Shown piece by piece: positions 1,267 to 32,343 of a stretch of DNA of 64,000 nucleotides. The first letter of the stretch is position 1. Each line of letters opens with the position of its first letter. The stretch is from Flavobacteriales bacterium (lineage in GTDB: Bacteria > Bacteroidota > Bacteroidia > Flavobacteriales_F > PHOS-HE28): assembly GCA_016704485.1 (NCBI GenBank), contig JADJAA010000001.1, forward strand, positions 1,554,824 to 1,618,823, in the 5' to 3' direction. The notes under the pieces are model-generated. The model was not told the DNA's origin. It saw nothing but the letters and a program-made list of their open reading frames with translations, and made no database searches. Made by a program: the position numbers and the translations under genes.

Positions 1267-1395
1267 GGTGTGTGGGTTTTGCTTGGGAATATAAAAAGCT
1301 TTCGTAAGTAAATTGGTAACAGTTCGGCTCTATGCGCGAGTATGGGCTGCATCGGATGTGTTCATGGGAACATTCGATCTGCTAACGGGTTTTCC

Positions 1396-1797: not shown

Positions 1798-1819
1798 CTA
1801 ACTGCTGCGCCGCGAAGAA

Positions 1820-3292: not shown

Positions 3293-3469
3293 GGGGGAGA
3301 ACTGATAGCACGCTCTCCGGGTCGGGGCCCGGAGTGACAGAGTTTAAAGGTGGGATAAACGCAGATAGAAATAGTGAAGGAGAGACCGCGTTCGCTGTCT
3401 TTTGCGAGGCAAGGAGGCTAGGCTCGAAAGCACGTTGTGAATGGTGAACGCACTTGTAGTCCCTCTGCG

Positions 3470-3814: not shown

Positions 3815-3928
3815 CGGTTGAAATTTTGCGTGGTTTGGTTCCGGTATTTCGGTTGGCATGTCCGAACTTATCGGAATGCGGAGGTGAAGGTATAGTGTAT
3901 GATCACCATCTGCGGTTGGGAGATCGTG

Positions 3929-17519: not shown

Positions 17520-17620
17520 GATCGTGTTGAACAACCTATGTATTGTCCTTCGTGTGATTATTGTTCAGCGCTGTATCAGTTAGCTGCGTGGCGAAGATGC
17601 GCCTAAAGTATTTGTTCAGA

Positions 17621-20600
17621 TCAAGCACTGCGCTCACCCGGCTGTGCGTTCCCTTGCACCCACTCCACTACCGAGATGATCTTATCCTGATCATTCTCAT
17701 TCGGGAATAGGCCGAAGATCCCTTCTTGGTGTAGGTCCGTGAACGTTGAACCCGGCTCTGCGAGCATGCGTTTGTCGATCACGCCGTTCACCGTGAGGTG
17801 CCGAATGATGGAATCGATGAAGTGGATCTGCGTAGCACTGAAGATGGAGCCGGACAAGAATTCGCCGAAGGCTGCTTTTGCTGCGCCTTCATCAAGGCCG
17901 ATGATGCTGCGAATGAAATAGCCTAGTGGCCGTTCCTCGCCAAGTTCCTTCATCAAAGCCTCCTTCGTGCCGCGTTCGTCTCCATCGAACAGGATGCGTT
18001 CCAGTTCCACTAGCTCAGCGGTCGTGATCGGCTCATTGGTGTATAGTTTGTGAATGGTAAGCTGGTGTTTGTGCGAGCGGATGAACTCCTCTACACGCAT
18101 CCGATAGCTACGCATGGTGTAGCTACCTGGCATGGAGATGATATCCTCACCCTCGCTCACCAACTCATCTCTCAGGTCCGAGTATACCACTTTGCGTTCC
18201 TCGCGCGGTATCAAGCGCACTAGATCGCGCAATTGTTTTCGTGTGAATTCCAAGGCTTCCAGACCGAACACAGCGGCTCGTTGTTGTTGATCATTTGCGA
18301 CATCAAGAACTGCTTTGATCGCTGGATACCGCTCCTGCACTACGGGAATGTTGGAGAGCCGGGCAAGCTGTGTGGCGGTTGAGGCCAACGTGCGGAACAG
18401 GCGATCTACTGACGGCGCCTCTTGGGCCACAGCAATTTCCAGATCGAGCATAAGTAGGTCAAATCGTTTGGCCAGCTCGTCCTTGTCCGGTAGTTCGATC
18501 AAGTGACCAACGGTCTCGAACAGATCACTGATCCCGCTTTTTGATAACGCATTCCATGCGGTACGTTCACGGTAGTGATCGAGCACACGTTGCGCAGGAC
18601 GAATGCGCACGGTGTGCCGCAATTCCCAAAGTGCCTGGACCCAACTATGCGCACTATTCAAAAGCTCAACGCGTAGTGCTTGATCTTTTGGTACCTGATG
18701 GGCTGGTTCACGCAGTTGTTCACTAAGTAGGATAGTTGCTTCAAAGATCCGTTGCGATAGGCTGGGGGAGCGCACAGGTTCAATGCCTTCCGGCCGCAGG
18801 TTGAAGAAGCTGTAGTTGCCACAGAGATCGAAGATCCTGAAGTTCTCCTTGTGCTGGCCGGGACCGAACAGATCCGGGCATAAGCGTGTGCCGCGGCCAA
18901 CCATTTGCCAGAACTTGGACTTGCTATAGACCGGTTTAAAGAACACCAAGTTCACGATCTCAGGAATATCAATACCCGTATCCAACATATCCACACTCAC
19001 GGCGATCTGTGGATACCGGTCCTTATCACTGAAATTATCTATGATGCTCTGGGAGTATTGCTCCTTACTGTGTACCACCGACATGAAATGCCCACCGTAC
19101 TGCGGGAACTGATCTTCAAAACGGTTCTGTATGGCCCGGGCATGGTCTATGTTCCTTGCAAAGACAACGGTCTTGCCCAGCTTCTCACCACCTTCCACTT
19201 TGATCCCGTTCTCCATCACATAGGCCAACACCTGATCGATGGTGTTCGAGTTGAAGAGCCAGTTATTGATCGCGGGCGCTCCGATCTCTTCGGGTATATT
19301 CCCTTGGTCGTCCCGGAAGGTCTCTTCGTAATGTGTCCTATCGCTCTCACTCAGGTCATCGTAGCGGATACCGCGTTGCAGAAAGCCGAAGTCCACTGCT
19401 TTGCCAATGGGCGGCACCAGAAAACGATCGGCTACGGCCTGCCCTAATTCATAGAACGATGTCGGGTTATGCTCTTCGCAATCGAACAAGGCATAGGTAT
19501 CCCGATCCCCTTGGTCGTGTGGTGTTGCAGTAAGGCCGACCAACAAGGAATCGAAATAGGTGAAAATAGCACCGTACCGATCGTACACTGAGCGATGCGC
19601 CTCATCCACAATGATCAGATCGAAGTGACCGACACCGAAGGTCTTCACATCATCACTCCGCACTTGGTCCACGCGGTTCATTACCGTGGGGTAGGTGCTG
19701 AAGACCACCCGTGCGCTTTCATCATAGCGCTGTTTGGTGAGATCCAATGTGGTAACATTCGGCAGGTTCTTCTCAAAGGCCCGTTTTGCCTGTGTGACCA
19801 AGGCATTGCGATCAGCGAGAAAGAGCACACGCTTCGCCCAATTCGCTTTCAGTAGAAGGTCCACTAACGCGGCAACGGTACGCGTCTTGCCAGCCCCAGT
19901 GGCCATTACGATCAATGCTTTTCGCTTAAGACCGCGCATGCCATCTTCATCCACCCAACTTTCTGCAACCCGCTTGATCGCTTGATGTTGGTAATAGCGT
20001 TCCACGATCTGCTCATCGATCGGCACATGCCGAATGTTCACACGACCGATACGCCGATCAACGACCCGTTGCAATTCGTCCCGCGTGTAAATGCCCTGTA
20101 CAGCGCGTGGACCATAAAAGGTGTCATCCCAGATCCACGTATCGAAACCGTTGCTATAGAATATCACCGGGCGCTGTCCGGTCATGCGTTCCAGGCAATC
20201 AGCGTAAAGGCTTGCTTGCACACGGCCTTGTTGGGCATCGTGGGTGGTGCGCTTGGCCTCTACTACGGCCAGCGGTTTACCATCTGCACCCCAGAGCACG
20301 TAATCTACCTTGCCGTTGCCGTTGGGATTGGTGCTCAATGGCATCCCTGTTACCGGGTATTCGATCACGTTGGATGCGGCAGGGTCCCAGCCTGCTTCGC
20401 GCAACAGTTCATCAATGAAGAGTAACCGTGTATCCGCCTCCGAATATTCAGAAGCAGGTATGGGTATGTTCTCATGGCGCTCCTTGCGCTCCTGGATCGC
20501 TGCCAGGCGTTCTGCCAATATCTGCTTTTCTCCTTCTAATTTCAACCGTTGCTCGCGCTCGGTCTCCATCGCTACACGTTGCGCTTCATAACGCTCCTGT

Positions 20601-21079
20601 AACTGTTGAAGCTCCGCGCTGTTCGGAACTTCCTTCACTTTCACTTGTACTATGAGTGCCTCCTCTTGGAATGTTCCTACCTCGATGTCGAATGCGCTGT
20701 ACGTACGACCCATCCATTTCAAGAACCGGAACAAGAGGCGCAATGAGGCTACGCTCTGGCTCTCCACCACCTTCTTATCATGCGCAGCGGCATTGCCGGT
20801 ACGCCGGATGTACTGCAGGTCGATGTAGATGGGTGGTGGTATCAGTACCCGGAAGGACCGTTCATCCATCAACGCGCTCAACTGGCTGTTGTAAGGGCGC
20901 TGTAGGTCACTGTCGTTATCATACAGCCAGTGCACGGTACGTTCCAACGCACGGCGGGCATACACGGCAGAGGCGATCGGTGCGGCCAAGGCATACCGCT
21001 CCGCGTCCATGGCCTCCTTCGCAATGGAGGGCCACTCTTCAACGAGGAAGCGGAAGTTGCTCGGGGTGCTCAACGACAT
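17621..21079 (-). CDS. hsdR: Type I restriction enzyme R subunit with N-terminal DUF4145/HEPN-like domain and EcoEI_R_C-type C-terminus
   Basis: N-terminus YARRALERTVHWLY...YIRRTGNAAAHDK. Nuclease VDYVLWGADGKPLAVVEAKRT. Helicase MATGAGKTRT, IIVDEAHRS, LTATP. C-terminal FIRSIIGLDEGAAKAAFGEFL... Confidence 0.9.
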   Translation of the reverse strand: MSLSTPSNFRFLVEEWPSIAKEAMDAERYALAAPIASAVYARRALERTVHWLYDNDSDLQRPYNSQLSALMDERSFRVLIPPPIYIDLQYIRRTGNAAAHDKKVVESQSVASLRLLFRFLKWMGRTYSAFDIEVGTFQEEALIVQVKVKEVPNSAELQQLQERYEAQRVAMETEREQRLKLEGEKQILAERLAAIQERKERHENIPIPASEYSEADTRLLFIDELLREAGWDPAASNVIEYPVTGMPLSTNPNGNGKVDYVLWGADGKPLAVVEAKRTTHDAQQGRVQASLYADCLERMTGQRPVIFYSNGFDTWIWDDTFYGPRAVQGIYTRDELQRVVDRRIGRVNIRHVPIDEQIVERYYQHQAIKRVAESWVDEDGMRGLKRKALIVMATGAGKTRTVAALVDLLLKANWAKRVLFLADRNALVTQAKRAFEKNLPNVTTLDLTKQRYDESARVVFSTYPTVMNRVDQVRSDDVKTFGVGHFDLIIVDEAHRSVYDRYGAIFTYFDSLLVGLTATPHDQGDRDTYALFDCEEHNPTSFYELGQAVADRFLVPPIGKAVDFGFLQRGIRYDDLSESDRTHYEETFRDDQGNIPEEIGAPAINNWLFNSNTIDQVLAYVMENGIKVEGGEKLGKTVVFARNIDHARAIQNRFEDQFPQYGGHFMSVVHSKEQYSQSIIDNFSDKDRYPQIAVSVDMLDTGIDIPEIVNLVFFKPVYSKSKFWQMVGRGTRLCPDLFGPGQHKENFRIFDLCGNYSFFNLRPEGIEPVRSPSLSQRIFEATILLSEQLREPAHQVPKDQALRVELLNSAHSWVQALWELRHTVRIRPAQRVLDHYRERTAWNALSKSGISDLFETVGHLIELPDKDELAKRFDLLMLDLEIAVAQEAPSVDRLFRTLASTATQLARLSNIPVVQERYPAIKAVLDVANDQQQRAAVFGLEALEFTRKQLRDLVRLIPREERKVVYSDLRDELVSEGEDIISMPGSYTMRSYRMRVEEFIRSHKHQLTIHKLYTNEPITTAELVELERILFDGDERGTKEALMKELGEERPLGYFIRSIIGLDEGAAKAAFGEFLSGSIFSATQIHFIDSIIRHLTVNGVIDKRMLAEPGSTFTDLHQEGIFGLFPNENDQDKIISVVEWVQGNAQPGERSA

Positions 21080-21273
21080 GGAGGCGCAATTGACGATATT
21101 CTAAGCACTTGTACAATTACAAGATGCGAATAAGTCGAGCCTATGATGTGCGGCTTGTGATGGTAACTGCCGCGTGTGGCCCTTTACGGCTCTAAAATAC
21201 ATGTGGATACTTCAGAACCGGTCTTCTTGCTGCTAAGAGAATGCTAATTCCTCTGAAGCACTACATTGCGGAC

Positions 21274-23375
21274 ATGTGCACCCACACACGCCTGCTATTA
21301 GTTGCGATCGCCATTTTTGGTCGTAGGGCTATGCACGGCGCAACAAGATGGACCAACCGAGGAGGAGCAGCCAACAATTATCACGGCGGAACAACTGCAG
21401 GACTTTAATTCGGTAGTGCCCGGCATGGGTCGACAGATCCCGGGAATATACTTGTCCAACTACGGGCTTCTGTGTTACCACTTTGGGGATGATGGCACAT
21501 TCGCATCGCGCGACTTGAATGATTCCGGTTGGGTCGCAGCCGGTTCATGGTATGCGCCCATCACGTTGCCAAAGGAACAATTGGACACTGCGCAAGCCCT
21601 GTGGGTGCGGTACCATCTTCTCTGCGACAGTTCCCTGCGCGGTAGCCCATTGACACTAAGTTTGGGATCCATTGCCGGTATTGAGATCTTTTTGAACGGC
21701 CATCGGTTGGTGCACGTCCGGGAATTGCCGCCGGTTGTTCATGATCTTGATCAACCAATTTGGGACACGCTGCGGCGCTTTACCCTACCGATCACATTCG
21801 CGTGCCAAGGCGAACCAGAAGTGCTCGCTATTCGGATAGATCCGGCAAGGAATGGAATTCCCTACCCCACTTTGCACTATACGAACTTCGCCTACAACGT
21901 ACAGCTGTCCGCGATGCACTATGGTGTCTTCATCGGGGTCAACGCCATCATCTTTTGCTCGCCTTGGTCCTCTGGTCTTTGGACCGGAATGATAAGCAGT
22001 GGTGGCTACTGGCCCTGCTGGCCTTCGTTACAGGATCAGGGTATGCGCCAAGTTGACCAGTGAGATGGGCTTGTTGGGTTTGCCGTGGCCCACCATCCAG
22101 GTCATTGGCATTATTGACAAGATCCTCCTTCTATGGCCTATGTATGTGCTTATCATGGTCTTGTGGCGCATGCTAGGTGGGTTATCAAGTCGGCGCGCCT
22201 TTTGGCTCACCTTCGGTGTCTTGTTCGTTTCGGCAACCAGCGCTGGCCGCTTGTACTTTTTCGGGAAGATCTCCTGGTCATTTTCGGAGATCACGGGGGA
22301 ATACAGCATAGATGCAGGTTTGTCCGATGATCAGTGGCCACTTTTGGTCGCACTGGTGGTTGGTGCGGTACTGCGCTATTCCATAGCGCTCTGGTTCGCG
22401 ATCGAATTGATCCGACTTGGCATTCGCCTGGTGCGTAAGAAGGGTTTCGGACGTTGGATCGGGGCAGGGGCGCTTGTGTCCAGTCTGTTGAGTTTCCTCT
22501 TGACGTGCTTCGGCCTGGTCACTGAAATACCATCTACGACATGGCTCACACTTTCCGATTATCTCGCCTATGTTGCTGTGCCGGTTTCAGTCGTCATTTA
22601 TCTGGCCGTCACTGCCGCTCAAAACAACAAGCTGGTAGCGCGTCAACGGGATGATCTTGATCGCGAGGTGGACGACCGTACCGCCGAACTTGTAGCGGAG
22701 AAACAAGCGGTGTTGCGCGAGAAAGAACGCAGCGATGAACTACTCCTCAACATCCTGCCATCCGAAGTGGCGGAAGAACTAAAAGCCAACGGTTCGGCAA
22801 AGGCGCGGGACTTCGATCCCGCCACCATCCTGTTCACCGACTTCAAAGGCTTCACGGAGCTATCCGTGCAATTAAGTGCTCAGGATCTGGTGGCCGAGAT
22901 CAATACGTGTTTCGAGGCGTTCGATGGGATAATTTCCCGGTACGGTGTGGAGAAGATCAAGACCATTGGCGATGCTTACATGGCGGCAGGTGGCGTGCCT
23001 GATCCTCTGCGCGGATCACCGGCAGGTGTTGTAGAGGCCGCGTTGGAGATGCAGGAATTCATGGTCAGGTACAAAGCGCAACGAACAGCCTTGAACAAAC
23101 CGGCCTTCGAGATGCGTCTCGGTGTTCACACCGGCCCAGTGGTGGCGGGCATCGTGGGTGTGAAGAAGTTCCAGTACGATATCTGGGGCGACACCGTGAA
23201 CACGGCCAGCCGCATGGAGAGCAATAGCGAAGTGGGCCAAGTAAACATCTCGCAGAGCACCTATGAACTGGTGAAGAACGTGCCGGGACTTGCCTTCACA
23301 TCGCGAGGCAAAATACCAGTGAAAGGGAAAGGAGAGCTGGAAATGTACTTCGTAAAGAGAGGGCCGGTCGCATAG
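21274..23375 (+). pseudogene. 7TMR-DISM-type class III adenylate/guanylate cyclase with a broken reading frame (at least 3 shifts)
   Basis: Track ORFs 21302-22063 (extracellular 7TMR-DISMED2-like domain), 21760-22056 and 21999-23375 (TM helices plus cyclase domain IKTIGDAYMAAGG...GVKKFQYDIWGDTVNTASRME) occupy three frames. The sensible protein path is: signal peptide MCTHTRLLLVAIAIF (ATG 21274, frame 1); LVVGLCTAQQ... (frame 2, shift at a T5 run near 21313); ...GVFIGVNAIIF then LLALVLWSLDRNDKQWWLLALLAFVTG (shift near 21950); then KLTSEMGLLGLPWP... (shift near 22045). Confidence 0.6.
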
Positions 23376-23388
23376 CCATTTCCGATCC

Positions 23389-23460
23389 CTACTCCCCCCA
23401 AAACGCCCCCTGCAGCAAAAGCCCGAACAAGTCCTCGCTCCGGCGTAGGTTCGCAGTGGA
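23389..23460 (-). pseudogene. Orphan 3' end of an hsdS gene (about 23 codons plus stop)
   Basis: Hand translation STANLRRSEDLFGLLLQGAFWGE*. The intact hsdS C-terminus is AASLHQSEGLFGSLLQGAFRGELGN*. 52 of 63 nt are identical to 24315-24377 in a hand alignment. Confidence 0.7.
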
Positions 23461-23476
23461 ACACCGGTAGTGCTGT

Positions 23477-24274
23477 CTATCCACTCCACTTCACGATATC
23501 CGCCACTACCGTCTTGTAGCTCAAGCCACGCAGCCGTTTCACCACCACGATGCGGGTATCTCCGTACTGCTCTGCGCGTTCGACCGACGAGTCAGTTGGT
23601 CTACTTTCCTTGATCCCCAGCCCCGTGCGAAAATGCGACCACCACGTATCGTTGGTGAGCACCACACAGAGTTTCGGCTGTAATTCCTCCAGTTCCATGC
23701 GCACCAGATCCACGCATTCGGGTCGTTGCAGGATGCGCTCGTCCACATCCGGATTGGCCACTTCGCCACGGTTCTGCGGTGCGATCTTGTAGAGGTTGGA
23801 CCATACCAGTTGACGGTTCCATTCCCACGCGTCCTCATTTGTGATGCCGTGCCGAACCTGCATCAGCTTGACCGTGGCCTGCCAGAAGAACGATGACCAA
23901 GCGCGGTAGTTCTTCTCCCGTTCGGTATACCAGGCTTGTTCTTCCGGGCTACACTTGTTCAAGGTAGTGTTCGTCCACAACACGTTCACCCAATCCAACG
24001 GGGAGTGGTCTTTGAAGGGTTCGTTGGAGTAGCGCTTGCTCTCTTCTATGCGGCCCCTCGGTACTGCCTTCGTGAAGTCCCACTCCGGGTGCCAACCACC
24101 CACGGCCTGGCCGTAGACCAGCACATCAACCGGTTCATTCGTTCGCGTACCGATGCTCGGATAGAAGTCTGTGAAGTGGGTGCGTTGCGGAAAGGTGCGC
24201 GCCAGTCGACGTTGAAAGGCTTCCAAGTGTTGCTGGTAGGCGGCGTTATAGGTTGGTGAGAGGGTGCGATACAT
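23477..24274 (-). CDS. Hypothetical 266-aa protein lodged between hsdS and the hsdS remnant
   Basis: ATG at 24274 (MYRTLSPTYNAAYQQHLEAF...). The longer track ORF to 24451 runs out of frame through the hsdS 3' end. There is no confident family. VDVLVYGQAVGGW faintly resembles UDG-superfamily motif 1, but this is unverified. Confidence 0.6.
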   Translation of the reverse strand: MYRTLSPTYNAAYQQHLEAFQRRLARTFPQRTHFTDFYPSIGTRTNEPVDVLVYGQAVGGWHPEWDFTKAVPRGRIEESKRYSNEPFKDHSPLDWVNVLWTNTTLNKCSPEEQAWYTEREKNYRAWSSFFWQATVKLMQVRHGITNEDAWEWNRQLVWSNLYKIAPQNRGEVANPDVDERILQRPECVDLVRMELEELQPKLCVVLTNDTWWSHFRTGLGIKESRPTDSSVERAEQYGDTRIVVVKRLRGLSYKTVVADIVKWSG

Positions 24275-24302
24275 TATGTCCGTGCTGCGTGATCCTCTTC
24301 CG

Positions 24303-25448
24303 TTAGTTCCCCAACTCCCCCCGGAACGCCCCCTGCAACAAACTCCCGAACAAGCCCTCGCTCTGGTGTAAGCTTGCTGCAATGCAGGTGCGCTGCTTTT
24401 GGATGTTATGGAGTAATGTTCCGAACCGTTCCTGCGCTTTGAGTGGAACAAGTGGAATACGCATTCTTCGGATCTCTTCTGTTGTGATATTCTTGAAGAT
24501 GGCTCCCACCGACTTATCGCTGACCCCTACGGCGAGCATATTCAGATAATGGTAAATGAACCTCAGGTCAAAGCCTTTGTCAAAGTCACGAAATCCTGCA
24601 AATCCATCGTGTATGCAACAGTCGACCATCAGGATCGCTGGCAGGCCTGGCTTCCCACTTACAGCCATCACCAAGTCACCACGTTTCATTGGACGACTGC
24701 GCTGTGAGCCTTCAATCGTGAGTGAATCGATCTGAGGTGTCACATACATCCCATCACGGGTCAAGTCTGCAACCATTAGGCGAGGCACGGGACCTCCAAA
24801 GTATCGCGCATCACCCTGTGGTCTTGGACTGCTCCCACGGACGACCTCACACAACGAACCCAAGTCTACAGTTTCCCACCCCCTCTCATTCCGCACCGGA
24901 TCCCCGAACAGCTCCAAGAACAGGCTCTTGGCAAGTTGGTCGTAAACCGCCAAGGTTCGCCGGTCGTTGGCCACCAGCGCCTGCGCCTTGTCCAAGATCG
25001 CCGCGATGCGACGCTGCGTGGGGAGGGCGGGCGGAGCAAAAGGTAAGCTGCGGATATCTTCTATCTTGAAGCCTTTCACCGTCGCTCCGTTTCCACGCGA
25101 AATGAAGTAATTCTCTTTCGCAAATAGAAAGTAATAGAGATAGGTCTGGTCAACCTTGCCATTTATAACAAGCGCCTTCAGATCCTGATTGAATGCCATC
25201 GGCACGTTCGTGATCGACATGCGCCCAAGAGCCATGCGTGTTGCAATCAATAACGTTCCGGCTGGAACTATCTGTGTCGCACAATTATCTACACCGCGTT
25301 CAGTGATCGACTCGTACGTCTCCGAAATATGCTTTGATGTAAGATCCTTCACCGTAGCCCATGGGACATCACCTTCCCAATAGCCCTCGATATCGCGATT
25401 AGGAGTACCACCACCAAGTATCTGGATATAATTGCCCAGCACGCTCAT
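24303..25448 (-). CDS. hsdS: Type I R-M specificity subunit
   Basis: 381 aa with two TRD halves, each followed by a conserved helical spacer (...LPTQRRIAAILDKAQALV... and ...LKAQERFGTLLHNIQKQR...). 4-nt ATGA overlap with hsdM. Confidence 0.9.
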   Translation of the reverse strand: MSVLGNYIQILGGGTPNRDIEGYWEGDVPWATVKDLTSKHISETYESITERGVDNCATQIVPAGTLLIATRMALGRMSITNVPMAFNQDLKALVINGKVDQTYLYYFLFAKENYFISRGNGATVKGFKIEDIRSLPFAPPALPTQRRIAAILDKAQALVANDRRTLAVYDQLAKSLFLELFGDPVRNERGWETVDLGSLCEVVRGSSPRPQGDARYFGGPVPRLMVADLTRDGMYVTPQIDSLTIEGSQRSRPMKRGDLVMAVSGKPGLPAILMVDCCIHDGFAGFRDFDKGFDLRFIYHYLNMLAVGVSDKSVGAIFKNITTEEIRRMRIPLVPLKAQERFGTLLHNIQKQRTCIAASLHQSEGLFGSLLQGAFRGELGN

Positions 25449-27004
25449 TTCAACAACGCCTCCAATTCGTCCAACAATTTCACACGGTCGGCGGCCAATT
25501 GGCGCAGGCCGGGTTCTCCCTTTTTGCCGTTGATCAGCTCGGCGGGCGTGGCATACTTCACTTGCTCGTACACCACCTCCTTGTAGCGGTTTATGCTGAG
25601 GTCCCAGTTGTTGGCCTTCAAGTCCGCAAAGGGCACCAGAAAGCTCTGGTCGGTTCGTGCACGTTTGCTTTCACCTTTCGCACCGAAGCGCGCTAGGATG
25701 TCGGCGATGTTGCTTTTCTCGTGCAGCGTTTTCGCTCCCTTGGTGGGCTCGGTGTATTGGAGTTCAAGCTGTTCTTCGGTGAGTTGCGGTGTGCGCTTAT
25801 CATCCAACGAGAAACCGTCGGCACGCATGTCGTAGAACCACACGTTGTCGGTACCGCCGCTATCGGTCTTGGTAAAGATCAGCACCGCGGTGCTCACCCC
25901 TGCATAGGGTTTGAATACGCCGCCGGGCATGCTGATCACCGCTTGCAATTGCTGGCGTTCGATCAGTTCCTGCCGCAGTTGCTTGTGCGCCTTGCTGCTG
26001 CCGAAGAGCACACCATCGGGCACGATCACAGCTGCGCGGCCACCTGTGCGGAGCATGCGCAGGATCAGACCTAGGAAGAGCAACTCGGTCTTCTTGCTGC
26101 TCACTGTGCGCAAGATCGCAGGGTCCACAGCGTCGTGGTCCAAGCTGCCTTTGAACGGCGGGTTCGCTAACACCAGCGAGAAGCGCTCACTGATGTGGCC
26201 TTGCTCTTTGCTAAGCGCATCCTGCCCGATCAGTTGCGGGTGCTCAATGCCGTGCAACATCATGTTCATGGCACCAATGCGCAACATGCTGGAGTCGAAC
26301 TCGACCCCGGTGAAGAGGTTGGTGTTGTAATGCTCGCGGAACTTCTTCTCGTGGAAGCTGTCCGGGTGCGTGCGCCGTATCTCTTCGCTTGCCGCCACCA
26401 AGAAACCGCACGTGCCGGCACTGGGATCGCAGATGGTATCGGTGGGTTGCGGAACCATCAGTTGCACCATCATGCGGATGATGTGGCGCGGTGTGCGGAA
26501 CTGGCCGTTGCGTCCTGCCGTAGCGATCTTGCCCAGCAGGTATTCATAGAGGTCGCCCTTGGTGTCGCGGTCGGCCATGTCCAGCGCGGCGATCATTTGC
26601 ACGGCGCGGTCCAGCAACCGCGCGGAGGGGATCATGAACGTAGCACCCTTCATGTGCTCACTGAACACGCTGCCCTCGCGCCCCATCTGCTTCATGAAAT
26701 CGAAGACCGTGAGGTTATCGTTCTTCGCATCAGGCCGCGTAAAGAGCGCGAACAATGTATCCGGGTCCTTGTCCTTGAAACTGCTCCACCGCAACGCCTT
26801 GTACTTGGGCGGGTAAATGGGATCCTTGATGGGCCCACCGAGCTTGGCGCTCTGCTTCTCTTTGGTGGTCTGGATCTCATCCATCCGGCGCAAAAAGAGC
26901 AAGTAGGTGATCTGTTCGATAACCGTGAGCGGATTGGCGATGCCGCCAGTCCAGAAGGCCTCCCAGAGGCGGTCGACGTCGGAGCGGAGTGTTCCGTTTA
27001 TCAT
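25445..27004 (-). CDS. hsdM: Type I R-M DNA methyltransferase subunit
   Basis: HsdM N-terminal domain. FRTPRHIIRMMVQLM, motif I ICDPSAGTCGFLV and motif IV VLANPPFKGS are all intact. Confidence 0.92.
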   Translation of the reverse strand: MINGTLRSDVDRLWEAFWTGGIANPLTVIEQITYLLFLRRMDEIQTTKEKQSAKLGGPIKDPIYPPKYKALRWSSFKDKDPDTLFALFTRPDAKNDNLTVFDFMKQMGREGSVFSEHMKGATFMIPSARLLDRAVQMIAALDMADRDTKGDLYEYLLGKIATAGRNGQFRTPRHIIRMMVQLMVPQPTDTICDPSAGTCGFLVAASEEIRRTHPDSFHEKKFREHYNTNLFTGVEFDSSMLRIGAMNMMLHGIEHPQLIGQDALSKEQGHISERFSLVLANPPFKGSLDHDAVDPAILRTVSSKKTELLFLGLILRMLRTGGRAAVIVPDGVLFGSSKAHKQLRQELIERQQLQAVISMPGGVFKPYAGVSTAVLIFTKTDSGGTDNVWFYDMRADGFSLDDKRTPQLTEEQLELQYTEPTKGAKTLHEKSNIADILARFGAKGESKRARTDQSFLVPFADLKANNWDLSINRYKEVVYEQVKYATPAELINGKKGEPGLRQLAADRVKLLDELEALLK

Positions 27005-27017
27005 GGGGTGAAGATGG

Positions 27018-28226
27018 TCAATGTTTGGTGATGGTGGTAAATTCCCATTTAGACTGTCCGTTCAGTTCGACTTGTTTGACTTGGCCGGAAACGAGGTCGC
27101 CATCCACAAGGCTGTGTAGTTTTATCAGATCCTTGTTGATGTAGGCATCGCCAGCATGGGCGTAGGTGTTATCGTTGCGTTTCTTGACCACGACGCGGCC
27201 CAGTTCTTTGGTATCACCGTCGAGTAGGGGAACTCCGTCGCTGCCTACCGCTTCCTCGTGTAGCCAGGTTCGGTTCGCCTTGGGGTCTGGATACTTTGCT
27301 GCGAACTTCTTGAACCAGACCAACACGTCCATGAGCTGGAACACGATGGTGCTCAAGAGGTAAGGCGTTACACCATGCTCGTGTAGTGCTTCGAGATTGT
27401 CCAAGCTGTAATTGGAATCCTCAGCGGTCTCGTCCGCATGCGAGCTTTCGCTGGTTACCCGCAGAATATTGTCCAGTGCATCGGCAACGATCCGGGGCAT
27501 CATCGGGCGGTCACACTTCAAGGCCACCGTGGCCGAAGAACGGCTCGGATAAAGCACGCGCTCGCCCCGCAGGAACAGTGCTGACAAGCGTTGGTTGACC
27601 CTCGGCTTTACAAGGACATCGGGTAGTAACCCGTGCCGATGCGCGGCATAGAAGAAGTGCTCCACTACCTGACGCAAAGGATTCATGAATAAGCGATCAC
27701 TACCGGACTTGTCCCCGCGATCCACAAAGCGCAATGCGTCCATGAACATAGGGTCGGCAACGGCATCCAAATAAGGAACTTGGAGCACTGCGAACACATC
27801 GGCATACCTATCACGAAGCGCTTGCTCGTTGCTTCGATCAACAAGGCTCTGTAGTTCCGCGTATAGGTCCTTCTCGTTCCCTTTCAAGTACCGCCGCTCA
27901 TCACGACGGTTCTTTGTTGCACCTTCGTCAAAGCCGGTATTGATCACATACGGAATATGAATGTTCGCTCCTTTCCATTGGTCCAGATCCCTGCGGGCTT
28001 CATGCAGGTGGTCGATGTCCTCGGTGGGTGAATGTTCATCCACCTGCCCTCTGGCATCGAGGATCAAGGCTTTGAAACGCTTTTCTCGGATCGGTTCCTT
28101 AGCCTCGGCCCAGGTCTTGAACCAAGTCACTTCGAAACCGTGCGCGACCGCCTTAGCAATTTGGGCTTTGGCGTATGCTTCATCGTCATCTACTAAGGCG
28201 ATCGGAACCAGGTCAAACAGTGTCAT
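27018..28226 (-). CDS. Receiver (REC)-domain protein with DUF4145/HEPN-like middle domain and C-terminal beta-rich domain
   Basis: ATG 28226 gives MTLFDLVPIALVDDDEAY...FKALILDARG...IPYVINTGF, a REC-like acidic pocket, Asp and Thr. The middle region NPLRQVVEHFFYAAHRHG ... LDNILRVTSESSHAD parallels RRALERTVHWLY ... YIRRTGNAAAHDK in the HsdR N-terminus (Rx4-6H). 14-nt overlap with the upstream kinase gene. Confidence 0.6.
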   Translation of the reverse strand: MTLFDLVPIALVDDDEAYAKAQIAKAVAHGFEVTWFKTWAEAKEPIREKRFKALILDARGQVDEHSPTEDIDHLHEARRDLDQWKGANIHIPYVINTGFDEGATKNRRDERRYLKGNEKDLYAELQSLVDRSNEQALRDRYADVFAVLQVPYLDAVADPMFMDALRFVDRGDKSGSDRLFMNPLRQVVEHFFYAAHRHGLLPDVLVKPRVNQRLSALFLRGERVLYPSRSSATVALKCDRPMMPRIVADALDNILRVTSESSHADETAEDSNYSLDNLEALHEHGVTPYLLSTIVFQLMDVLVWFKKFAAKYPDPKANRTWLHEEAVGSDGVPLLDGDTKELGRVVVKKRNDNTYAHAGDAYINKDLIKLHSLVDGDLVSGQVKQVELNGQSKWEFTTITKH

Positions 28227-30909
28227 GCGAAATGGGAAGGTCAATGGTGAAGTGGACAAACATTTGAGTGGATACAGCTTCCCGGTCAAATGGTATCCAA
28301 TGATTCTCGTCTATACGTTGATCGCGTTCAAAACTCGATCGGTACTTGTCATCGCTCACTGGCAGGTTACCCGACACGAACTTTCCGCCGTGGTTGGCAA
28401 TGATCCGATCGATCAGATAGCCGCCTATGCCATTGCCCTTTTTCATGTCCAGACGCTTGCCAAAGGTGATGAAGTGCTCATGGGTAAAACCTTCCGGAAA
28501 GGGTTTGCCGTTGTTCTCGATGGTGATAACCAATCGCGTTCGTTGAGGTTCAATACGCGTTGATACCCTCACCCGTACGACCAATTGTTCCTGATCCGAT
28601 CGAAGGCCGTGTTTGGCCATATTGATGAACAAGTTCTGGATGACAAGTGCGAACTGTTGTTGATCGACATGTGCGATCACTCCTTCAGTGGTTTCTAGTC
28701 CAGCTTCACATTCGAAAATGACCATAAGCGCTTTCACCTGGTCGGCAAGTCCGCGCAATTCCGTTCGGAACAGTCGACGAAGGTCGATGGGCACTGGTCT
28801 TAGACTCTCCTTATCTGATCGGATCACCGCATTGATCAATTGAAAGAGACCGCGCATGCGATCCAATCCACTATTCATTGTATCTAGGGCGGTGGTGATC
28901 GTAGACTTTTCAACTGGGCCCAAACTGTTGAGTACTGCATGGATCTCGGCCATGGGTTGCTCCAGAAGCGCCACCACCGGGCGGAAGCTGTGCTCCACTG
29001 CACCAAGGATCTGCCACTCATCAGTGGAGAGGCCATGCTGTTTTTCCTGCCTAGCGATCTCCTCCTTCTTCGCCAATAGAATGGATTCCTTCCGTTCGCG
29101 AACAATGCGCAGTTGATCCTTGAGTTCGGGTAAGCGAACCCGAATTCTCAGAACGTCTGCTTTGGCTATGAAAGCGATCGTACTTCCTTGGTGGTATGCG
29201 TCGAGCTGATCTTGGATCGTGGGCGTTCTTAGTTCTGTTGCGAGGTATTCGGTATTAGCACGAGCCGCATCCACACGGAACATGAATACATTGCTTCCCA
29301 CGGCGATCGGTCCATCTACCGGGTCGAATAAGGTCGGCTTCAACTTTCCGCCCACCCGTGCAAGTAGCAGTGCTGGCACATCCAATCTCTTCAGTCCCTT
29401 CTTGACAGAACCGGTTTCATGTTGCCCATCACGCGCCGTGCGCCTCATGTCGAGGACATCCGTTGAAAGCTCGGAGACCTGGAAGAGCGGCAGACCGGCG
29501 AGGTCGCCCATGGAGAGGATATCGTCCGAAAGCACGGTGCCGAGTTCAACCACGTCCACACCATCCGCTTCGGCCACGATATGGGCTTGTTGAAGCAGGC
29601 TGGCAAACCGACTCATGCTCCAAGACACATGCTCGTCGGAACGGATGTCAGAAACCTTCACGTCCAAAACACCTTGTAAGGTATAAGTGCTATCCAACGC
29701 CTGCAGCACGCTGCTAACATCGAGTGTTATTTCGGATCGCGTCTTGTATGTGACATGCAAACCCGCATCCACGAATCGGACAGGCGCATTCGTTGGCCGT
29801 GATCCATTCAAAACAATGATCGAGGTCTTTATCCCTGAGTAGGGTGTGAAGGATCCTGCTGGCAACGAGATCACTGCTTCGAGCAACCCTAGGTCAAGAA
29901 TCTGTTTGCGTAGATGCGCTCTGTTGATGCCGAACAACATACTCTCGGGCACAAGGATCACCGCCTTCCCCTCGGGTGCAAGCCGCTTGAGGATCTGGTT
30001 GATCGCTATCTCATAGGGTTCTATCGCGCGTAGCCTTCCTTCCTCTTTCACTCGACCACCGAAAGGTGGTGCACTAATGCAATGCGTATACTTCTTGTTG
30101 GAAGCACCGGGTGCTGATGGTTCGTTCAAGGCGGCGTTCAGGTCTGCCCCGAGAATACGTGCTTGCAGCGTATTGAAGAAGAATGCGAATTGGTTGAAGA
30201 ATACCGCGTCGAGCTTTACAGAATGTGGCGCACGCGCTGCGAGCACTGCTGGCAATACGCTCGCATCCGCAGCTGGGTCGAATACCTCTTCCACGTCTCC
30301 GAGCAGCCGCGCCATAAGCATTGCAACGGACCATGGCGTACAGAACTGGCCCATGTGACTATCGCGCAAGAGGAGGCTACGCATTTCTTCCACATACTCG
30401 ATCGGTTCCAAACCCGCTGATGCCATGAGAAAAAGCTCAGTTTGTACTGGGCTTGTTGCCAGTGCGCCGCCATTTTTAAGAAGATACGAATGCTGCTCCC
30501 CAAAGTCCTTAAACTCCTCTGCCAATTCATTCAAGGTGGACCATAATCCTTCTCCTCTTTGAGCGATCGTAGGCAACACTCCTGCTGGGCGCACGGCCAA
30601 GGCATAAATGAGTGCCAGCTCCAAGCCAACGGTCTGCGCGAAGGGCATGGATCGTAGCGCATTGCGCAATTCCCATGCGTGGGCCTGAAAAAAACGGACC
30701 CGGTTCAACATACGTTCTGGATCCAACTGTAAACTACCGTCATCGGATATACTAACACGCCCACCAGACAACTCCACCTCAGCAAGCAAGCTCGATGGCT
30801 CAACGTCCTTCTGGCTCAATAAGACCTTGACGATATTACAGACACCCTCCAAAGTATCCGAGCCGTTCTTCAGGCGAAGGGCACATATTATGGCGTCTAT
30901 CAGTTTCAT
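28213..30909 (-). CDS. Chimeric sensor histidine kinase: HsdM-like N6-MTase fold (degenerate motifs) + HsdS-like TRD + DHp/HATPase_c
   Basis: MTase-like: GQFCTPWSVAMLMARLL, VFDPAADASVLP (motif I lacks GxG), HCISAPPFGG (Ala where N/D/S is expected), KAVILVPESMLFG...LLEAVISLPAGSFTPYSGIKTSIIVLN. TRD-like: VELGTVLSD...LLLARVGGKLKPTLFD...VGSNVFMFRV...YLATELRT. Kinase: H-box GAVEHSFRPVVALL, N-box VIQNLFINMAKHG, ITIENNGKPF, GNGIGGYLIDRII. Confidence 0.7.
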   Translation of the reverse strand: MKLIDAIICALRLKNGSDTLEGVCNIVKVLLSQKDVEPSSLLAEVELSGGRVSISDDGSLQLDPERMLNRVRFFQAHAWELRNALRSMPFAQTVGLELALIYALAVRPAGVLPTIAQRGEGLWSTLNELAEEFKDFGEQHSYLLKNGGALATSPVQTELFLMASAGLEPIEYVEEMRSLLLRDSHMGQFCTPWSVAMLMARLLGDVEEVFDPAADASVLPAVLAARAPHSVKLDAVFFNQFAFFFNTLQARILGADLNAALNEPSAPGASNKKYTHCISAPPFGGRVKEEGRLRAIEPYEIAINQILKRLAPEGKAVILVPESMLFGINRAHLRKQILDLGLLEAVISLPAGSFTPYSGIKTSIIVLNGSRPTNAPVRFVDAGLHVTYKTRSEITLDVSSVLQALDSTYTLQGVLDVKVSDIRSDEHVSWSMSRFASLLQQAHIVAEADGVDVVELGTVLSDDILSMGDLAGLPLFQVSELSTDVLDMRRTARDGQHETGSVKKGLKRLDVPALLLARVGGKLKPTLFDPVDGPIAVGSNVFMFRVDAARANTEYLATELRTPTIQDQLDAYHQGSTIAFIAKADVLRIRVRLPELKDQLRIVRERKESILLAKKEEIARQEKQHGLSTDEWQILGAVEHSFRPVVALLEQPMAEIHAVLNSLGPVEKSTITTALDTMNSGLDRMRGLFQLINAVIRSDKESLRPVPIDLRRLFRTELRGLADQVKALMVIFECEAGLETTEGVIAHVDQQQFALVIQNLFINMAKHGLRSDQEQLVVRVRVSTRIEPQRTRLVITIENNGKPFPEGFTHEHFITFGKRLDMKKGNGIGGYLIDRIIANHGGKFVSGNLPVSDDKYRSSFERDQRIDENHWIPFDREAVSTQMFVHFTIDLPISHDTV

Positions 30910-30971
30910 GCAACGGGGGTCAAAGTAAGCGGTGGAGGGTTATGGTGTAGATGTGTTTGCAGGTTATGATC

Positions 30972-32234
30972 TCAAGCGACTTTCTCCAGTCGGTTTGTCG
31001 GCAGAAGTTGGGCAGCCATACGATCCATGACCTCCCATTCCGGACGTGTGTACGAGTTGCTCTCCGTGACCACCGGGATCCTGAATTCGCCCATGGCATC
31101 CTCGCGCATAGCCCATTGATCCTTCTGGTCGTAGAGCTTTGTTCCGGGCAAAAGCATCAGCGGCCAAGCCTTAACGTCCCTGCAGCCTTTGGATAAGAGG
31201 TGGTCGATACTACGCTGGAAACTTTCCAAGGTCTGTCCGGGCAACCCGTAGATCAAACTCACTTCGAAAGGAATCTCGCGCTCCACAAGCTGTTCAATAG
31301 CAGCATCGACAAGATCCATCCGATTGGCGCGGTCAATTTTCTTGGACACTGCATGGTCCGTGGTCTGCAACCCGAACTCCAAGTGGAAGTTGGCTTGCGT
31401 ACAAAGGTCCAGGAATGCATTAACCTGTTGGCCTCGGATATTCTCAAAGCGCGATTGCAGGGTGAAGGTGGAGCGCGTACGGAGTTGAACGATCTCTTGC
31501 ATTATATCCAGGCACTCCTTCCCAGCGTTGAAGATGGGGTCGAGTATGTTCACGCGTTGCACACGATGTTCAGTGAGAAATGCTAACTCTTTAAAGACTT
31601 TATCCAGTGGGTGCTTATGCACGCGGTGAGTGGCGAGGTCGCGGTGTGCGCAAAATGAACACCGGTAGGGGCAGCCGCGTTTGGTCTCCAACCGTACCAT
31701 ACCGGCTCCCATTGGTACAGGCAATTCGCCAGTGAGATACGGTGAGGCCAGTTGTGTGAAGTCCACTGGTACGTTCACGAACACGGGTTCGTCGGCATCG
31801 AGATGGTCCGTCAATTCGGCAAAGGCTTGTTCGGCTTGTCCGGAGATGAAGACCTGGCAATCCGGATACCGACGCAGCAATTCTGCTCGGTTCCCGTAGG
31901 TGACTTGATACCCTCCGAGGACCACCTTGCCAAGGAACCCAAGACGACGAAGCAATGCGATGATGCCATTGGTGAGGTACTCGTTCCAGATGTAAGCCGA
32001 GAGCGCGATGGCGTTAAAGCGGCTCACATCAAGCGCCGCGAGTTGCACTTCGAATTGCTCGGGTGTGGCCGTGCCGCCGTGTTCGAGCATGTTGATCGAG
32101 AGGTGTTCCACGTGCATCTGTCCACGCAGCCGTTCATTACTCCGTTGGTGTGCCAAGAGAGATGCGATCGCCAAGGGCTTGGTGATCTCACCGTGCCGGA
32201 TCAGGTCGAAGGATATGATGAGCGTGTTCGTCAT
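30972..32234 (-). CDS. Radical SAM enzyme with N-terminal B12-binding-like domain
   Basis: ATG 32234 (MTNTLIISFDL...). Rossmann-like N-terminal domain VVLGGYQVTY. CxxxCxxC cluster in ETKRGCPYRCSFCAHRD. Confidence 0.8.
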   Translation of the reverse strand: MTNTLIISFDLIRHGEITKPLAIASLLAHQRSNERLRGQMHVEHLSINMLEHGGTATPEQFEVQLAALDVSRFNAIALSAYIWNEYLTNGIIALLRRLGFLGKVVLGGYQVTYGNRAELLRRYPDCQVFISGQAEQAFAELTDHLDADEPVFVNVPVDFTQLASPYLTGELPVPMGAGMVRLETKRGCPYRCSFCAHRDLATHRVHKHPLDKVFKELAFLTEHRVQRVNILDPIFNAGKECLDIMQEIVQLRTRSTFTLQSRFENIRGQQVNAFLDLCTQANFHLEFGLQTTDHAVSKKIDRANRMDLVDAAIEQLVEREIPFEVSLIYGLPGQTLESFQRSIDHLLSKGCRDVKAWPLMLLPGTKLYDQKDQWAMREDAMGEFRIPVVTESNSYTRPEWEVMDRMAAQLLPTNRLEKVA

Positions 32235-32343
32235 TGGTCCTCGCCACCAAGGGTCTATATGGTTGGATAATCGCTCAACCAACGAACTTCCCTATGGCAA
32301 CGGACCAAAAGTCCCGGTCACCTGTGCAGTCTATCTGCACAGT

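What the first reader, a model, noticed from the sequence alone, without database searches (positions are those of the whole stretch)
23389..24377. Direct duplication of the hsdS 3' end brackets an inserted 266-aa ORF
The last roughly 23 codons of hsdS (24303-24377) recur at 23389-23460 in the same orientation. 52 of 63 nt are identical by hand alignment, and the translation is STANLRRSEDLFGLLLQGAFWGE*. The orphan ORF 23477-24274 sits exactly between the two copies. This looks like the scar of a recombination event at the conserved hsdS C-terminal helix. Either a gene cassette was inserted downstream of hsdS, or an older hsdS was replaced by a new hsdS-plus-ORF unit. Genes inserted inside Type I loci, such as prrC and the rlo genes, are often defence-related.
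Basis: seen in the sequence. Interest (0 to 1): 0.5.

Follow-up and report, generated by a model that had tools for sequence, protein, structure and literature searches.

The report
hsdS tail relic beside UDG-fold gene
A 68-base leftover of an older restriction-specificity gene (hsdS) sits just after a gene for a uracil-DNA-glycosylase-like protein inside a Type I restriction locus; the leftover is an ordinary recombination scar, and the glycosylase-like gene is an untested candidate for a new anti-phage enzyme family.

Summary
Window 23387-23454 and 24310-24377 are a gap-free direct repeat of 68 nt at 82% identity (blastn E=5e-15 against the whole window). The downstream copy translates in frame to the conserved HsdS C-terminal helix.

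It is a decaying relic of a different hsdS allele, not an in-situ duplication. It differs from the active tail about as much as tails from other genomes differ from each other. It has lost an invariant Ser, and its stop codon is a mutated Leu codon.

HsdS genes of this family are mosaics: variable TRD1, conserved CR1, variable TRD2, conserved tail. The stretch between hsdS and hsdR is a cargo bay that carries different defence genes in each relative. A sister lineage (L072) shares CR1 and the cyclase flank but carries another TRD2 plus an Uzume-like pair instead of this ORF and the relic.

The scar is ordinary. The ORF family is a reasonable new candidate defence glycosylase.

The parts
23387..23454 (-). 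Relic of the last ~23 codons of a displaced hsdS allele. It is untranslated and could extend at most to 23476.
   Evidence: It is 68 nt and 82% identical to 24310-24377, with E=5e-15. Its in-frame translation is NLRRSEDLFGLLLQGAFWGE*. No gene is called here in sister contigs. It is the most divergent of nine tails compared. Ser is replaced by Leu at a position invariant in 8 intact alleles, and TAG replaces TTG.
24310..24377 (-). Conserved C-terminal tail (distal CR2 helix) of the live hsdS gene; the other copy of the repeat.
   Evidence: The 39-nt core GAGCGAGGGCTTGTTCGGGAGCTTGTTGCAGGGGGCGTT is nearly invariant in 8 independent alleles.
23477..24274 (-). ORF265, a 265-aa divergent UDG-superfamily protein and candidate defence DNA glycosylase.
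24275..24302 (-). 28-nt spacer between the hsdS stop and the ORF265 start; co-transcription is inferred.
   Evidence: Both genes are on the same strand, and no promoter-like or terminator-like site lies between them.
24303..25448 (-). Intact hsdS, 381 aa, organised as TRD1-CR1-TRD2-tail.
   Evidence: Pfam Methylase_S 2.7e-31 and PADLOC Specificity_I 1.9e-66. The mosaic conservation profile is shown.
24874..24996 (-). hsdS central conserved region (CR1), the left boundary of the module exchanged with the sister lineage L072.
   Evidence: It is 100% identical over 123 nt to L072 3385-3507, after which TRD2 is unrelated.
25445..27004 (-). hsdM.
   Evidence: Pfam N6_Mtase 1.6e-57 and HsdM_N; PADLOC MTase_I 1.7e-168.
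21241..23375 (+). Class III nucleotide cyclase gene, convergent with ORF265. It is 711 aa in sister contigs and frameshifted in this window. Its 3' end is the right boundary of the exchanged module.
   Evidence: Pfam Guanylate_cyc 7e-56. It is called as 711 aa in L001. Three single-base indels separate the window from L001. Homology with L072 ends at 23366.
17621..21079 (-). hsdR, 1152 aa. It is separated from hsdMS by the cargo bay.
   Evidence: Pfam ResIII, HSDR_N, EcoEI_R_C and Helicase_C.

Best explanation
The downstream repeat copy is a non-functional relic: the last 23 (at most 30) codons of an hsdS allele that once ended at this spot, next to the convergent cyclase gene.

HsdS genes of this Type I family are mosaics. 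Two variable target-recognition domains are separated by two conserved segments, CR1 and the 22-codon tail. These segments stay similar between loci even at synonymous sites, so they act as homology handles. The stretch between hsdS and hsdR is a cargo bay that holds different defence genes in each relative.

In this lineage, a recombination event put a 'TRD2 - tail - ORF265' segment in place of most of the resident hsdS 3' half. The left crossover lay in homologous sequence (CR1 or hsdM). The right end joined illegitimately a few bases upstream of the resident tail. This is inferred to be homology-facilitated illegitimate recombination. The old tail was stranded after ORF265 and has been decaying since.

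ORF265 is probably co-transcribed with hsdMS. It is a divergent UDG-superfamily protein. By analogy with Brig1/2/3, it is predicted to excise a modified base from phage DNA that escapes Type I restriction.

Shown: the relic, the mosaic structure, the module exchange, the fold and the embedding. Inferred: the order and mechanism of the event, co-transcription, and glycosylase or defence activity.
For: The relic is real and is an hsdS tail.
- establish the repeat, its significance and its translation.
- It looks decayed. It is the most divergent of nine tails, 71-81% identical to the others against 75-91% among intact ones. It has a unique Ser-to-Leu change at an invariant position, and TAG replaces TTG.
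- No gene is called there. There is no RNA structure (z=0.34) and no terminator.

HsdS is a mosaic.
- TRD1 is 11-35% identical, CR1 88-100%, TRD2 8-31% and the tail 73-82%.
- Among identical residues, the codon is also identical in 78-83% of cases in CR1 plus tail, against 59-61% in hsdM (Fisher p=0.006 and 0.0007).

A module was exchanged.
- L072 shares CR1 at 100% identity and the cyclase at 92.7% nt identity.
- It has a different TRD2 and a 273-aa ORF plus UzuA in place of ORF265 and the relic.
- Homology with the window ends at 24874 and at 23366.

The region is a cargo bay.
- L007 carries PDC-M03A/B.
- L066 carries Kiwa plus others.
- L064 carries AAA_15/DUF4276.
- L013 and L068 carry extra ORFs.

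Only this lineage has a second tail, and the arrangement is fixed in about 22 contigs from many samples.

ORF265 identity tracks hsdM/hsdR identity.

ORF265 is a UDG-fold protein in defence contexts.
- WYL is the commonest neighbour, in 10 of 24 Bacteroidota loci.
- Wadjet, WYL and Type I genes flank distant members.
- UDG-fold defence glycosylases already exist: PMC11078745, 10.1101/2025.10.29.685425, 10.64898/2026.02.25.707755.
Against: - No donor and no pre-event locus was found, so the direction of the event, the position of the left crossover and any microhomology at the right joint are not observed.
- The relic lies inside the segment that differs from L072. It could therefore predate the window/L072 exchange or have arrived with imported DNA.
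- ORF265 has no experimental data. It fails Pfam's UDG threshold (13.2 vs 24.3 bits), and profiles find no PDB sequence.
- The family 1 catalytic Asp of motif 1 (GQDPY) is absent here (GQAVGGW). The motif 2 His of families 1, 3 and 4 is Arg.
- One homologue (Niabella) sits among ordinary genes.
Confidence: 0.6

Rival explanations
1. Cassette capture. A small circular or looped-out piece carrying ORF265 plus one hsdS tail integrated by a single homologous crossover within the resident tail (Campbell-type). This would give tail-ORF265-tail as a true insertion, with TRD2 unchanged.
For: The ORF lies exactly between two directly oriented tail copies, 923 nt apart. The tail core is conserved at the nucleotide level between loci, so it offers homology.
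Against: No other ORF265 locus has a second tail. ORF265 flanks are not conserved between the window, L007 and L013. No recombinase is present in the locus. The copies are only 82% identical and show no obvious hybrid structure. L072 shows that TRD2 changes together with the cargo.
Confidence: 0.15
2. The relic came in from the other side. A fragment 'hsdS tail - cyclase (- hsdR 5' end)' from another Type I locus replaced whatever followed ORF265, so ORF265 is the resident and the cyclase side is the newcomer.
For: ORF265 co-diverges with hsdM/hsdR and occupies this position in L007. The cyclase family otherwise lives in non-defence contexts and occurs in a Type I locus only in the window and L072 lineages.
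Against: L072 has the same cyclase in the same place without the relic. Window/L072 homology stops inside the cyclase 3' end, which places the relic on the hsdS-side module. No donor with an hsdS-cyclase adjacency was found.
Confidence: 0.15
3. The repeat is a functional element rather than a scar: a terminator, a regulatory RNA, a small peptide gene or a dedicated recombination site.
For: It lies in the 101-nt gap between two convergent genes. It is retained in all ~22 contigs of the population.
Against: The folding energy is no better than shuffles (z=0.34), and no terminator-like or promoter-like site is present. The contigs are >99.9% identical overall, so retention says nothing about selection. 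The element is absent from the equivalent place in L007, L013 and L072. Its substitutions hit conserved codons.
Confidence: 0.03
4. ORF265 is not a defence effector. It could be a housekeeping repair glycosylase, or a UDG-fold protein without catalytic activity that merely hitch-hikes in variable regions.
For: The Niabella homologue sits among metabolic genes and near dnaG and tag. The canonical UDG catalytic residues are not all present. There is no PADLOC model.
Against: All nine close homologue loci are inside or beside Type I systems, of two different hsdR families. WYL-WCX is the commonest neighbour of the more distant ones. About 20 residues are nearly invariant across 116 diverse members, which suggests a conserved active site. 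The distribution is patchy, and the genes lie in variable regions.
Confidence: 0.25

Closest known systems
TRD swapping by recombination at hsdS conserved regions in Type I R-M families (established knowledge of Type I families; review PMC3874165)
   Same: The gene has the same architecture: variable TRDs separated by a central and a C-terminal conserved region. Alleles differ by whole TRDs and have breakpoints at the conserved regions (the L072 breakpoint at CR1).
   Different: Here the exchanged unit also carries downstream cargo genes. One event also left a stranded tail, so at least one joint was not a clean homologous crossover.
Defence genes embedded in Type I R-M operons: PrrC/RloC, TgvAB (PMC11411939) and the 'guilt-by-embedding' candidates (10.1101/2024.01.29.577857)
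   Same: ORF265 lies between hsdS and hsdR of a complete Type I system. It recurs there in independent loci together with known systems: Kiwa, PDC-M03, and an AAA_15/DUF4276 pair. Uzume fills the same slot in sister loci that lack ORF265.
   Different: ORF265 matches no PADLOC v2 model, including the PDC/HEC sets. It has no anticodon-nuclease or GmrSD features. No function has been tested.
Brig1, Brig2 and Brig3: UDG-superfamily DNA glycosylases that defend against phages with modified bases (PMC11078745; 10.1101/2025.10.29.685425; 10.64898/2026.02.25.707755)
   Different: The substrate is unknown. This family is centred on Bacteroidota and is embedded in Type I loci or paired with WYL-WCX regulators.
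Family 4 UDG / SMUG1 / UdgX / MUG-TDG repair glycosylases (PDB 1l9g, 4zby, 5h93, 6ail, 1mtl)
   Same: The core alpha/beta fold is shared. A Gly-rich loop follows the first strand (GQAVGGW, compare GEAPG/GQDPY). An invariant Asn ends an inner strand (WSN160L, compare hUNG N204 from established knowledge). An 'xP' motif follows the last strand (R247-P248, compare HPS).
   Different: Sequence identity is 9-16%. ORF265 has an extra N-terminal helix and helical inserts, making it 265 aa against about 190-230. It has no family 1 type motif 1 Asp and no motif 2 His. It scores below Pfam's UDG cut-off.
Homology-facilitated illegitimate recombination (established knowledge from natural-transformation studies)
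   Same: One end is anchored in homology and the other is joined illegitimately. Foreign DNA replaces most of a resident segment and leaves a stub.
   Different: The mechanism is inferred here. Neither the donor nor any microhomology at the joint has been observed.

Membership tests
hsdS 3'-terminal pseudogene fragment (relic) | Significant nucleotide similarity to the 3' end of intact hsdS genes of the same family | tested here: met
   68 nt at 82% identity, E=5e-15, Smith-Waterman 77 vs 25.7+/-1.9. It is also 71-81% identical to seven other alleles' tails.
hsdS 3'-terminal pseudogene fragment (relic) | The same reading frame gives the conserved C-terminal helix motif | tested here: met
   NLRRSEDLFGLLLQGAFWGE aligns with SLRRSEGLFGSLLQGAFGGEL and similar tails.
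hsdS 3'-terminal pseudogene fragment (relic) | No TRD or start upstream, so it is not a functional gene | tested here: met
   The ORF265 stop lies 22 nt upstream and there are in-frame stops. No gene is called here in sister contigs.
UDG superfamily (ORF265) | UDG-type alpha/beta fold | tested here: met
UDG superfamily (ORF265) | Pfam PF03167 at the gathering threshold | tested here: not met
   The window protein scores 13.2 bits against a 24.3 cut-off (E 0.098). 17 of 37 members hit below threshold, best E 5.5e-5.
UDG superfamily (ORF265) | Motif 1 after strand 1 and motif 2 (HPS-like) after the last strand, in the catalytic positions | tested here: inconclusive
   GQAVGGW follows strand 51-55, invariant N160 ends strand 156-160, and R247-P248 follow strand 240-245. 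No residue-level superposition was possible.
UDG superfamily (ORF265) | N-glycosidic bond hydrolysis | not testable with these tools
   This needs an enzyme assay.
Brig1/Brig2/Brig3 defence glycosylases | Sequence homology to a characterised Brig protein | not testable with these tools
   The sequences are not held. The supplement tables are truncated. No Brig chain appears among the PDB hits.
Brig1/Brig2/Brig3 defence glycosylases | Encoded in defence islands | tested here: met
Brig1/Brig2/Brig3 defence glycosylases | Protects against phages with a modified base by excising it | not testable with these tools
   This needs plaque and glycosylase assays.
Type I-embedded defence genes | Lies between the hsd genes of an otherwise complete Type I system, recurrently | tested here: met
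   Seen in the window, L007, L013 and L068 (EcoEI_R_C-type hsdR) and in L064 and L066 (T1RH-like_C-type hsdR); L015 and L016 lie downstream of hsdM-hsdS on contigs that end before any hsdR; L017 lies directly after an hsdR.
Type I-embedded defence genes | Match to a catalogued embedded system (PADLOC PDC/HEC, PrrC, RloC) | tested here: not met
   PADLOC gives 0 families at E<=0.01. NCBIfam gives none.
Phase-variable hsdS shufflon / inverton | Multiple hsdS copies with inverted repeats and a nearby site-specific recombinase | tested here: not met
   The copies are in direct orientation, and the only extra copy is a 68-nt stub. No recombinase domain occurs in the locus.
Integrative element restoring the 3' end of its target gene (att duplication) | An integrase, and near-identical att repeats bracketing the element | tested here: not met
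   There is no integrase, the repeats are only 82% identical, and the bracketed DNA is one 265-aa gene.

The most novel reading that the evidence does not exclude
The hsdS tail, whose 39-nt core is kept nearly identical between otherwise diverged loci even at synonymous sites, could act as a portable homology handle. Through it, Type I loci would capture and exchange defence cargo, working like an integrase-free cassette platform. On this reading the relic is a direct footprint of such a capture. ORF265 would be a new family of anti-phage DNA glycosylase that works alongside the Type I enzyme against modified-base phages.
Probability: 0.12. Interest if true: 0.6.

Novelty: new member of a known kind. 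Interest (0 to 1): 0.4.

Why it matters
The scar itself is ordinary. It does give a dated footprint showing that, in these Flavobacteriales, hsdS specificity domains and downstream defence cargo are exchanged together as modules between the conserved hsdS segments and the flanking genes.

The more useful result concerns ORF265. It belongs to a large family (about 1000 clusters at 50% identity) of confidently UDG-folded proteins that has no model in Pfam, NCBIfam or PADLOC. The family recurs inside Type I restriction loci and next to WYL-WCX regulators.

Three UDG-fold enzymes have recently been shown to defend bacteria by excising modified phage bases. If this family does the same, it would add a Bacteroidota-centred member with possibly a new substrate. 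It would also give a concrete case of a restriction system paired with an enzyme aimed at phages that evade restriction by base modification. This can be tested directly by expression and glycosylase assays.

Tried and rejected
- **Search for an empty or pre-event site.** Exact-sequence look-ups of hsdR and hsdM returned only the same arrangement in about 22 contigs. The metagenome scan with the tail pattern gave five loci, none with the relic-type tail and none with hsdS directly abutting the cyclase.
- **Search for second tail copies in seven other ORF265-bearing Type I loci.** None was found, so tail duplication is not a property of the ORF.
- **Functional-element reading of the relic.** There is no structure signal (z=0.34), no terminator and no promoter.
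- **Compositional evidence for foreign origin.** GC is 0.56-0.57 against 0.51-0.60 locally, which is uninformative.
- **Sequence-profile links from the ORF family to solved structures.** Alignments of 37 and of 116 sequences gave no hit even at E<=10.
- **afdb50 fold library.** It was not available.
- **Getting Brig2 sequences or homologue lists from the preprint's supplement.** The tables are truncated and share no organisms with our hits.
- **Phage or plasmid origin of the ORF.** It has no relatives in viral contigs or plasmids.
- **Pycsar reading of the cyclase.** The PycC hits are weak (3e-15, catalytic domain only). Its 45-50% homologues sit in non-defence contexts. Rejected as unsupported.
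- **One script call returned no answer** and was repeated.
Full report
**The observation**

The region lies on the minus strand of a Flavobacteriales MAG. The repeat finder gives a single direct-repeat family, 23387-23454 and 24310-24377. It is 68 nt long, ungapped and 82% identical. The best local alignment is 61 nt at 85% identity.

blastn of the 101-nt intergenic stretch against the rest of the 64-kb window gives E=5e-15, and nothing else scores below E=0.6. The Smith-Waterman score is 77, against 25.7 +/- 1.9 (maximum 33) for 100 dinucleotide shuffles.

The downstream copy translates in frame to ...STANLRRSEDLFGLLLQGAFWGE*. The live hsdS ends ...AASLHQSEGLFGSLLQGAFRGELGN*.

The ORF between the copies (23477-24274) is 265 aa, not 266.

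**The locus**

The genes on the minus strand, in order, are:
- a WYL-WCX regulator (32344-33354);
- a radical-SAM protein matching PADLOC PDC-M51A (30972-32282);
- an 898-aa methyltransferase/TRD/HATPase protein;
- a 402-aa protein;
- hsdM (25445-27004);
- hsdS (24303-25448);
- ORF265;
- the relic.

A class III cyclase follows on the plus strand (21241-23375). Then, back on the minus strand, come hsdR (17621-21079) and a GmrSD_N/HEC-05-like gene. hsdMS and hsdR are therefore separated by about 3.2 kb of other genes.

**What the relic is**

I compared the tails of eight independent intact hsdS alleles of this family: the window, L007, L013 and L068-L072.
- They share a nearly invariant 39-nt core, GAGCGAGGGCTTGTTCGGGAGCTTGTTGCAGGGGGCGTT.
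- Intact tails are 75-91% identical to each other over the 68-nt register.
- The relic is 71-81% identical to them, which makes it the most divergent copy.
- It has a Ser-to-Leu change (AGC to CTT) at a position invariant in all intact alleles.
- It has TAG where five of the eight intact tails have TTG, and similarity continues a few bases past that 'stop'.

The two window copies are therefore tails of two different alleles, not an in-situ duplication. The downstream one looks like a decaying pseudogene fragment.

No gene is called there in sister contigs. It has no RNA-structure signal (z=0.34) and no terminator-like or promoter-like site.

**Why it is exactly this long**

Aligning the HsdS proteins shows the classic mosaic: TRD1 11-35% identity, CR1 88-100%, TRD2 8-31% and the tail 73-82%. 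Similarity between any two alleles would stop where the relic's similarity stops. The relic could therefore be longer than the 68 nt that can be recognised. It cannot pass the ORF265 stop at 23477, so it spans 23 to 30 codons.

In CR1 plus the tail, identical residues also share the same codon in 78-83% of cases. The figure for hsdM is 59-61% (Fisher p=0.006 and 0.0007). This is the pattern expected if these segments are homogenised by recombination between alleles.

**Comparative evidence on the event**

About 22 contigs from many samples carry the identical arrangement, so it is fixed in this population.

A metagenome scan with the tail core found five further loci. One of them, L072, is a sister lineage.
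- Its cyclase is 92.7% identical at the nucleotide level to window 22471-23366.
- Its hsdS CR1 is 100% identical to window 24874-24996.
- Between these flanks it has a different TRD2, its own tail, a 273-aa ORF and a GIY-YIG protein matching Uzume UzuA (5.7e-60).
- It has neither ORF265 nor the relic.

So the whole module from the end of CR1 to the last codons of the cyclase has been exchanged.

Other relatives fill the gap between hsdS and hsdR differently:
- L007 has ORF265 plus PDC-M03A/B on the opposite strand.
- L013 has an extra signal-peptide ORF before ORF265 and 7.6 kb after it.
- L068 has three ORFs before ORF265 and an Xre-type antitoxin after it.
- L069 to L071 have Uzume-type cargo.

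None of seven other ORF265-bearing Type I loci has a second tail copy.

ORF265 identity to the window (71, 59 and 54% in L007, L013 and L068) tracks hsdM/hsdR identity (83/73, 78/72 and -/62%). It therefore behaves as a long-term companion of this locus type, not as a recently arrived lone gene.

**Most likely mechanism**

A 'TRD2-tail-ORF265' segment replaced most of the 3' half of a resident hsdS. The left crossover lay in homologous sequence. The right end joined illegitimately just upstream of the resident tail, stranding it next to the cyclase.

The relic, the mosaic and the module exchange are shown. The order of events and the type of joint are inferred.

Two rivals remain open. One is Campbell-type capture of an ORF265-plus-tail cassette. 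The other is arrival of the relic together with the cyclase side. A functional-element reading is very unlikely.

**ORF265**

There is no Pfam, NCBIfam or PADLOC hit at threshold. The family is large: 78 close clusters at 90% identity, and 1380 representative clusters at E<=1e-3, of which 998 are at E<=1e-10.

AlphaFold2 on a 37-sequence alignment gives pLDDT 93.5 and pTM 0.92.
- All top Foldseek hits against the PDB are UDG-superfamily enzymes, best 4zby at E=5.6e-4.
- 17 of 37 members give sub-threshold PF03167 hits, best 5.5e-5. The window protein scores 13.2 bits against a cut-off of 24.3.

Conserved residues sit where UDG motifs are expected:
- GQAVGGW follows strand 51-55.
- WSN160LYKIAP lies at strand 156-160.
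- LTN..WW follows strand 202-205.
- R247-P248 follow strand 240-245.

This mapping rests on secondary-structure order, not on a residue-level superposition. The canonical Asp and His are not present.

**Context of the ORF265 family**

- All nine close homologue loci lie in or beside Type I systems, of two different hsdR families. They sit next to Kiwa, PDC-M03, an AAA_15/DUF4276 pair and others.
- Among 130 neighbour ORFs from 24 Bacteroidota loci, the commonest families are WYL (10), WCX (8), AAA (5) and Type I M/S (4).
- Individual distant members sit beside Wadjet, PDDEXK_4 and another Type I system.
- One homologue (Niabella) is in an ordinary neighbourhood.
- There are no relatives in viral contigs or plasmids.

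**Comparison with what is known**

- Genes embedded in Type I operons are a recognised class: PrrC, TgvAB (PMC11411939) and the 'guilt-by-embedding' candidates (10.1101/2024.01.29.577857). ORF265 meets the positional criterion but matches none of the catalogued models.
- ORF265 works like these on present evidence (fold, single gene, defence context).
- Brig2's reported phyla and integron origin resemble the distribution of the distant relatives here, some of which are flanked by cassette-like repeats. This is a lead only.
- TRD exchange at the conserved hsdS regions is textbook Type I biology (PMC3874165).

**Verdict**

The repeat is real and is a recombination scar, an ordinary by-product of hsdS and cargo turnover. 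The embedded gene is a new, untested member of the growing class of UDG-fold candidate defence glycosylases. Interest is moderate.

Noticed in passing
window 21241-23375 (+); indels at 21314, 21952, 22032: The cyclase gene is one 711-aa ORF in sister contigs. In this window it carries three single-base indels, two of them in T runs, which break the frame. This is probably an assembly error rather than a pseudogene.
   Followed up: yes
window 21241-23375; L088, L089: This membrane-anchored class III cyclase sits between hsdS-side cargo and hsdR only in the window and L072 lineages. Its 45-50% homologues in other Flavobacteriales lie among T9SS, TPR and signalling genes. PADLOC PycC hits are weak (3e-15) and cover only the catalytic domain. 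Why it sits inside a Type I locus is unexplained.
   Followed up: partly
window 27018-33354 (-): Upstream of hsdM is a conserved module: a WYL-WCX regulator, a radical-SAM protein (PADLOC PDC-M51A, 6.6e-117), an 898-aa N6-MTase/TRD-like/HATPase protein, and a 402-aa protein with a weak Rho RNA-binding-like C-terminus. The radical-SAM, MTase and following gene recur in L007 and L013. It may be a separate multi-gene defence system fused to the Type I operon.
   Followed up: partly
window 15720-17534 (-) and downstream (L076 12561-21459): hsdR is followed by a GmrSD_N protein (PADLOC HEC-05-like, 1.7e-30), a 1610-aa DEAD/UvrD-type helicase, and a DprA/LDcluster4 protein with another helicase. The Type I locus therefore lies in a larger defence island.
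   Followed up: no
window 24303-25448; L007, L013 hsdS: The hsdS conserved regions (CR1 and tail) keep identical codons for identical residues more often than hsdM does (78-83% vs 59-61%, p=0.006 and 0.0007). This is consistent with recurrent recombination or gene conversion between alleles.
   Followed up: yes
L069 1-850, L070 1-900, L071 58-891, L072 1050-2795: In four of five metagenome loci with this hsdS tail, hsdS is followed by an uncharacterised ORF of about 190-280 aa. That ORF is homologous between L071 and L072. A UzuA-like GIY-YIG protein (Uzume) follows it in L069, L070 and L072. This is a recurrent alternative cargo for the same slot.
   Followed up: partly
L013-L038 (24 Bacteroidota loci); L073 5777-6682, L074 8191-9093: A WYL-WCX (BrxR/CapW-like) regulator is the most frequent neighbour of ORF265 homologues, in 10 of 24 loci. 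AAA ATPases come next, in 5 loci. This suggests a regulated module in the branch that is not embedded in Type I loci.
   Followed up: partly
L040 6136-8972; L042 6877-8631: Distant gammaproteobacterial homologues (24-25% identity, in Shewanella and Marinomonas) are flanked by repeated units: 261 nt in L040, and about 40 nt containing TAACAAG…AACAGTTGGC in L042. The spacing is cassette-like and resembles an integron array. This may link the family to the integron-encoded UDG-like proteins of the Brig2 study.
   Followed up: partly
L004 / L083 (GCA_016707465.1) 1368-4062: In one NCBI assembly of the same organism, the 898-aa MTase/HATPase gene is split into 337-aa and 575-aa ORFs, and the cyclase is called as 700 aa. 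These are further assembly-level frame differences between near-identical contigs.
   Followed up: no
protein P0190 (408 aa): One distant family member has the UDG-like domain fused to a DnaB N-terminal domain (Pfam 1.7e-7). The fusion hints at a link to replication proteins.
   Followed up: no
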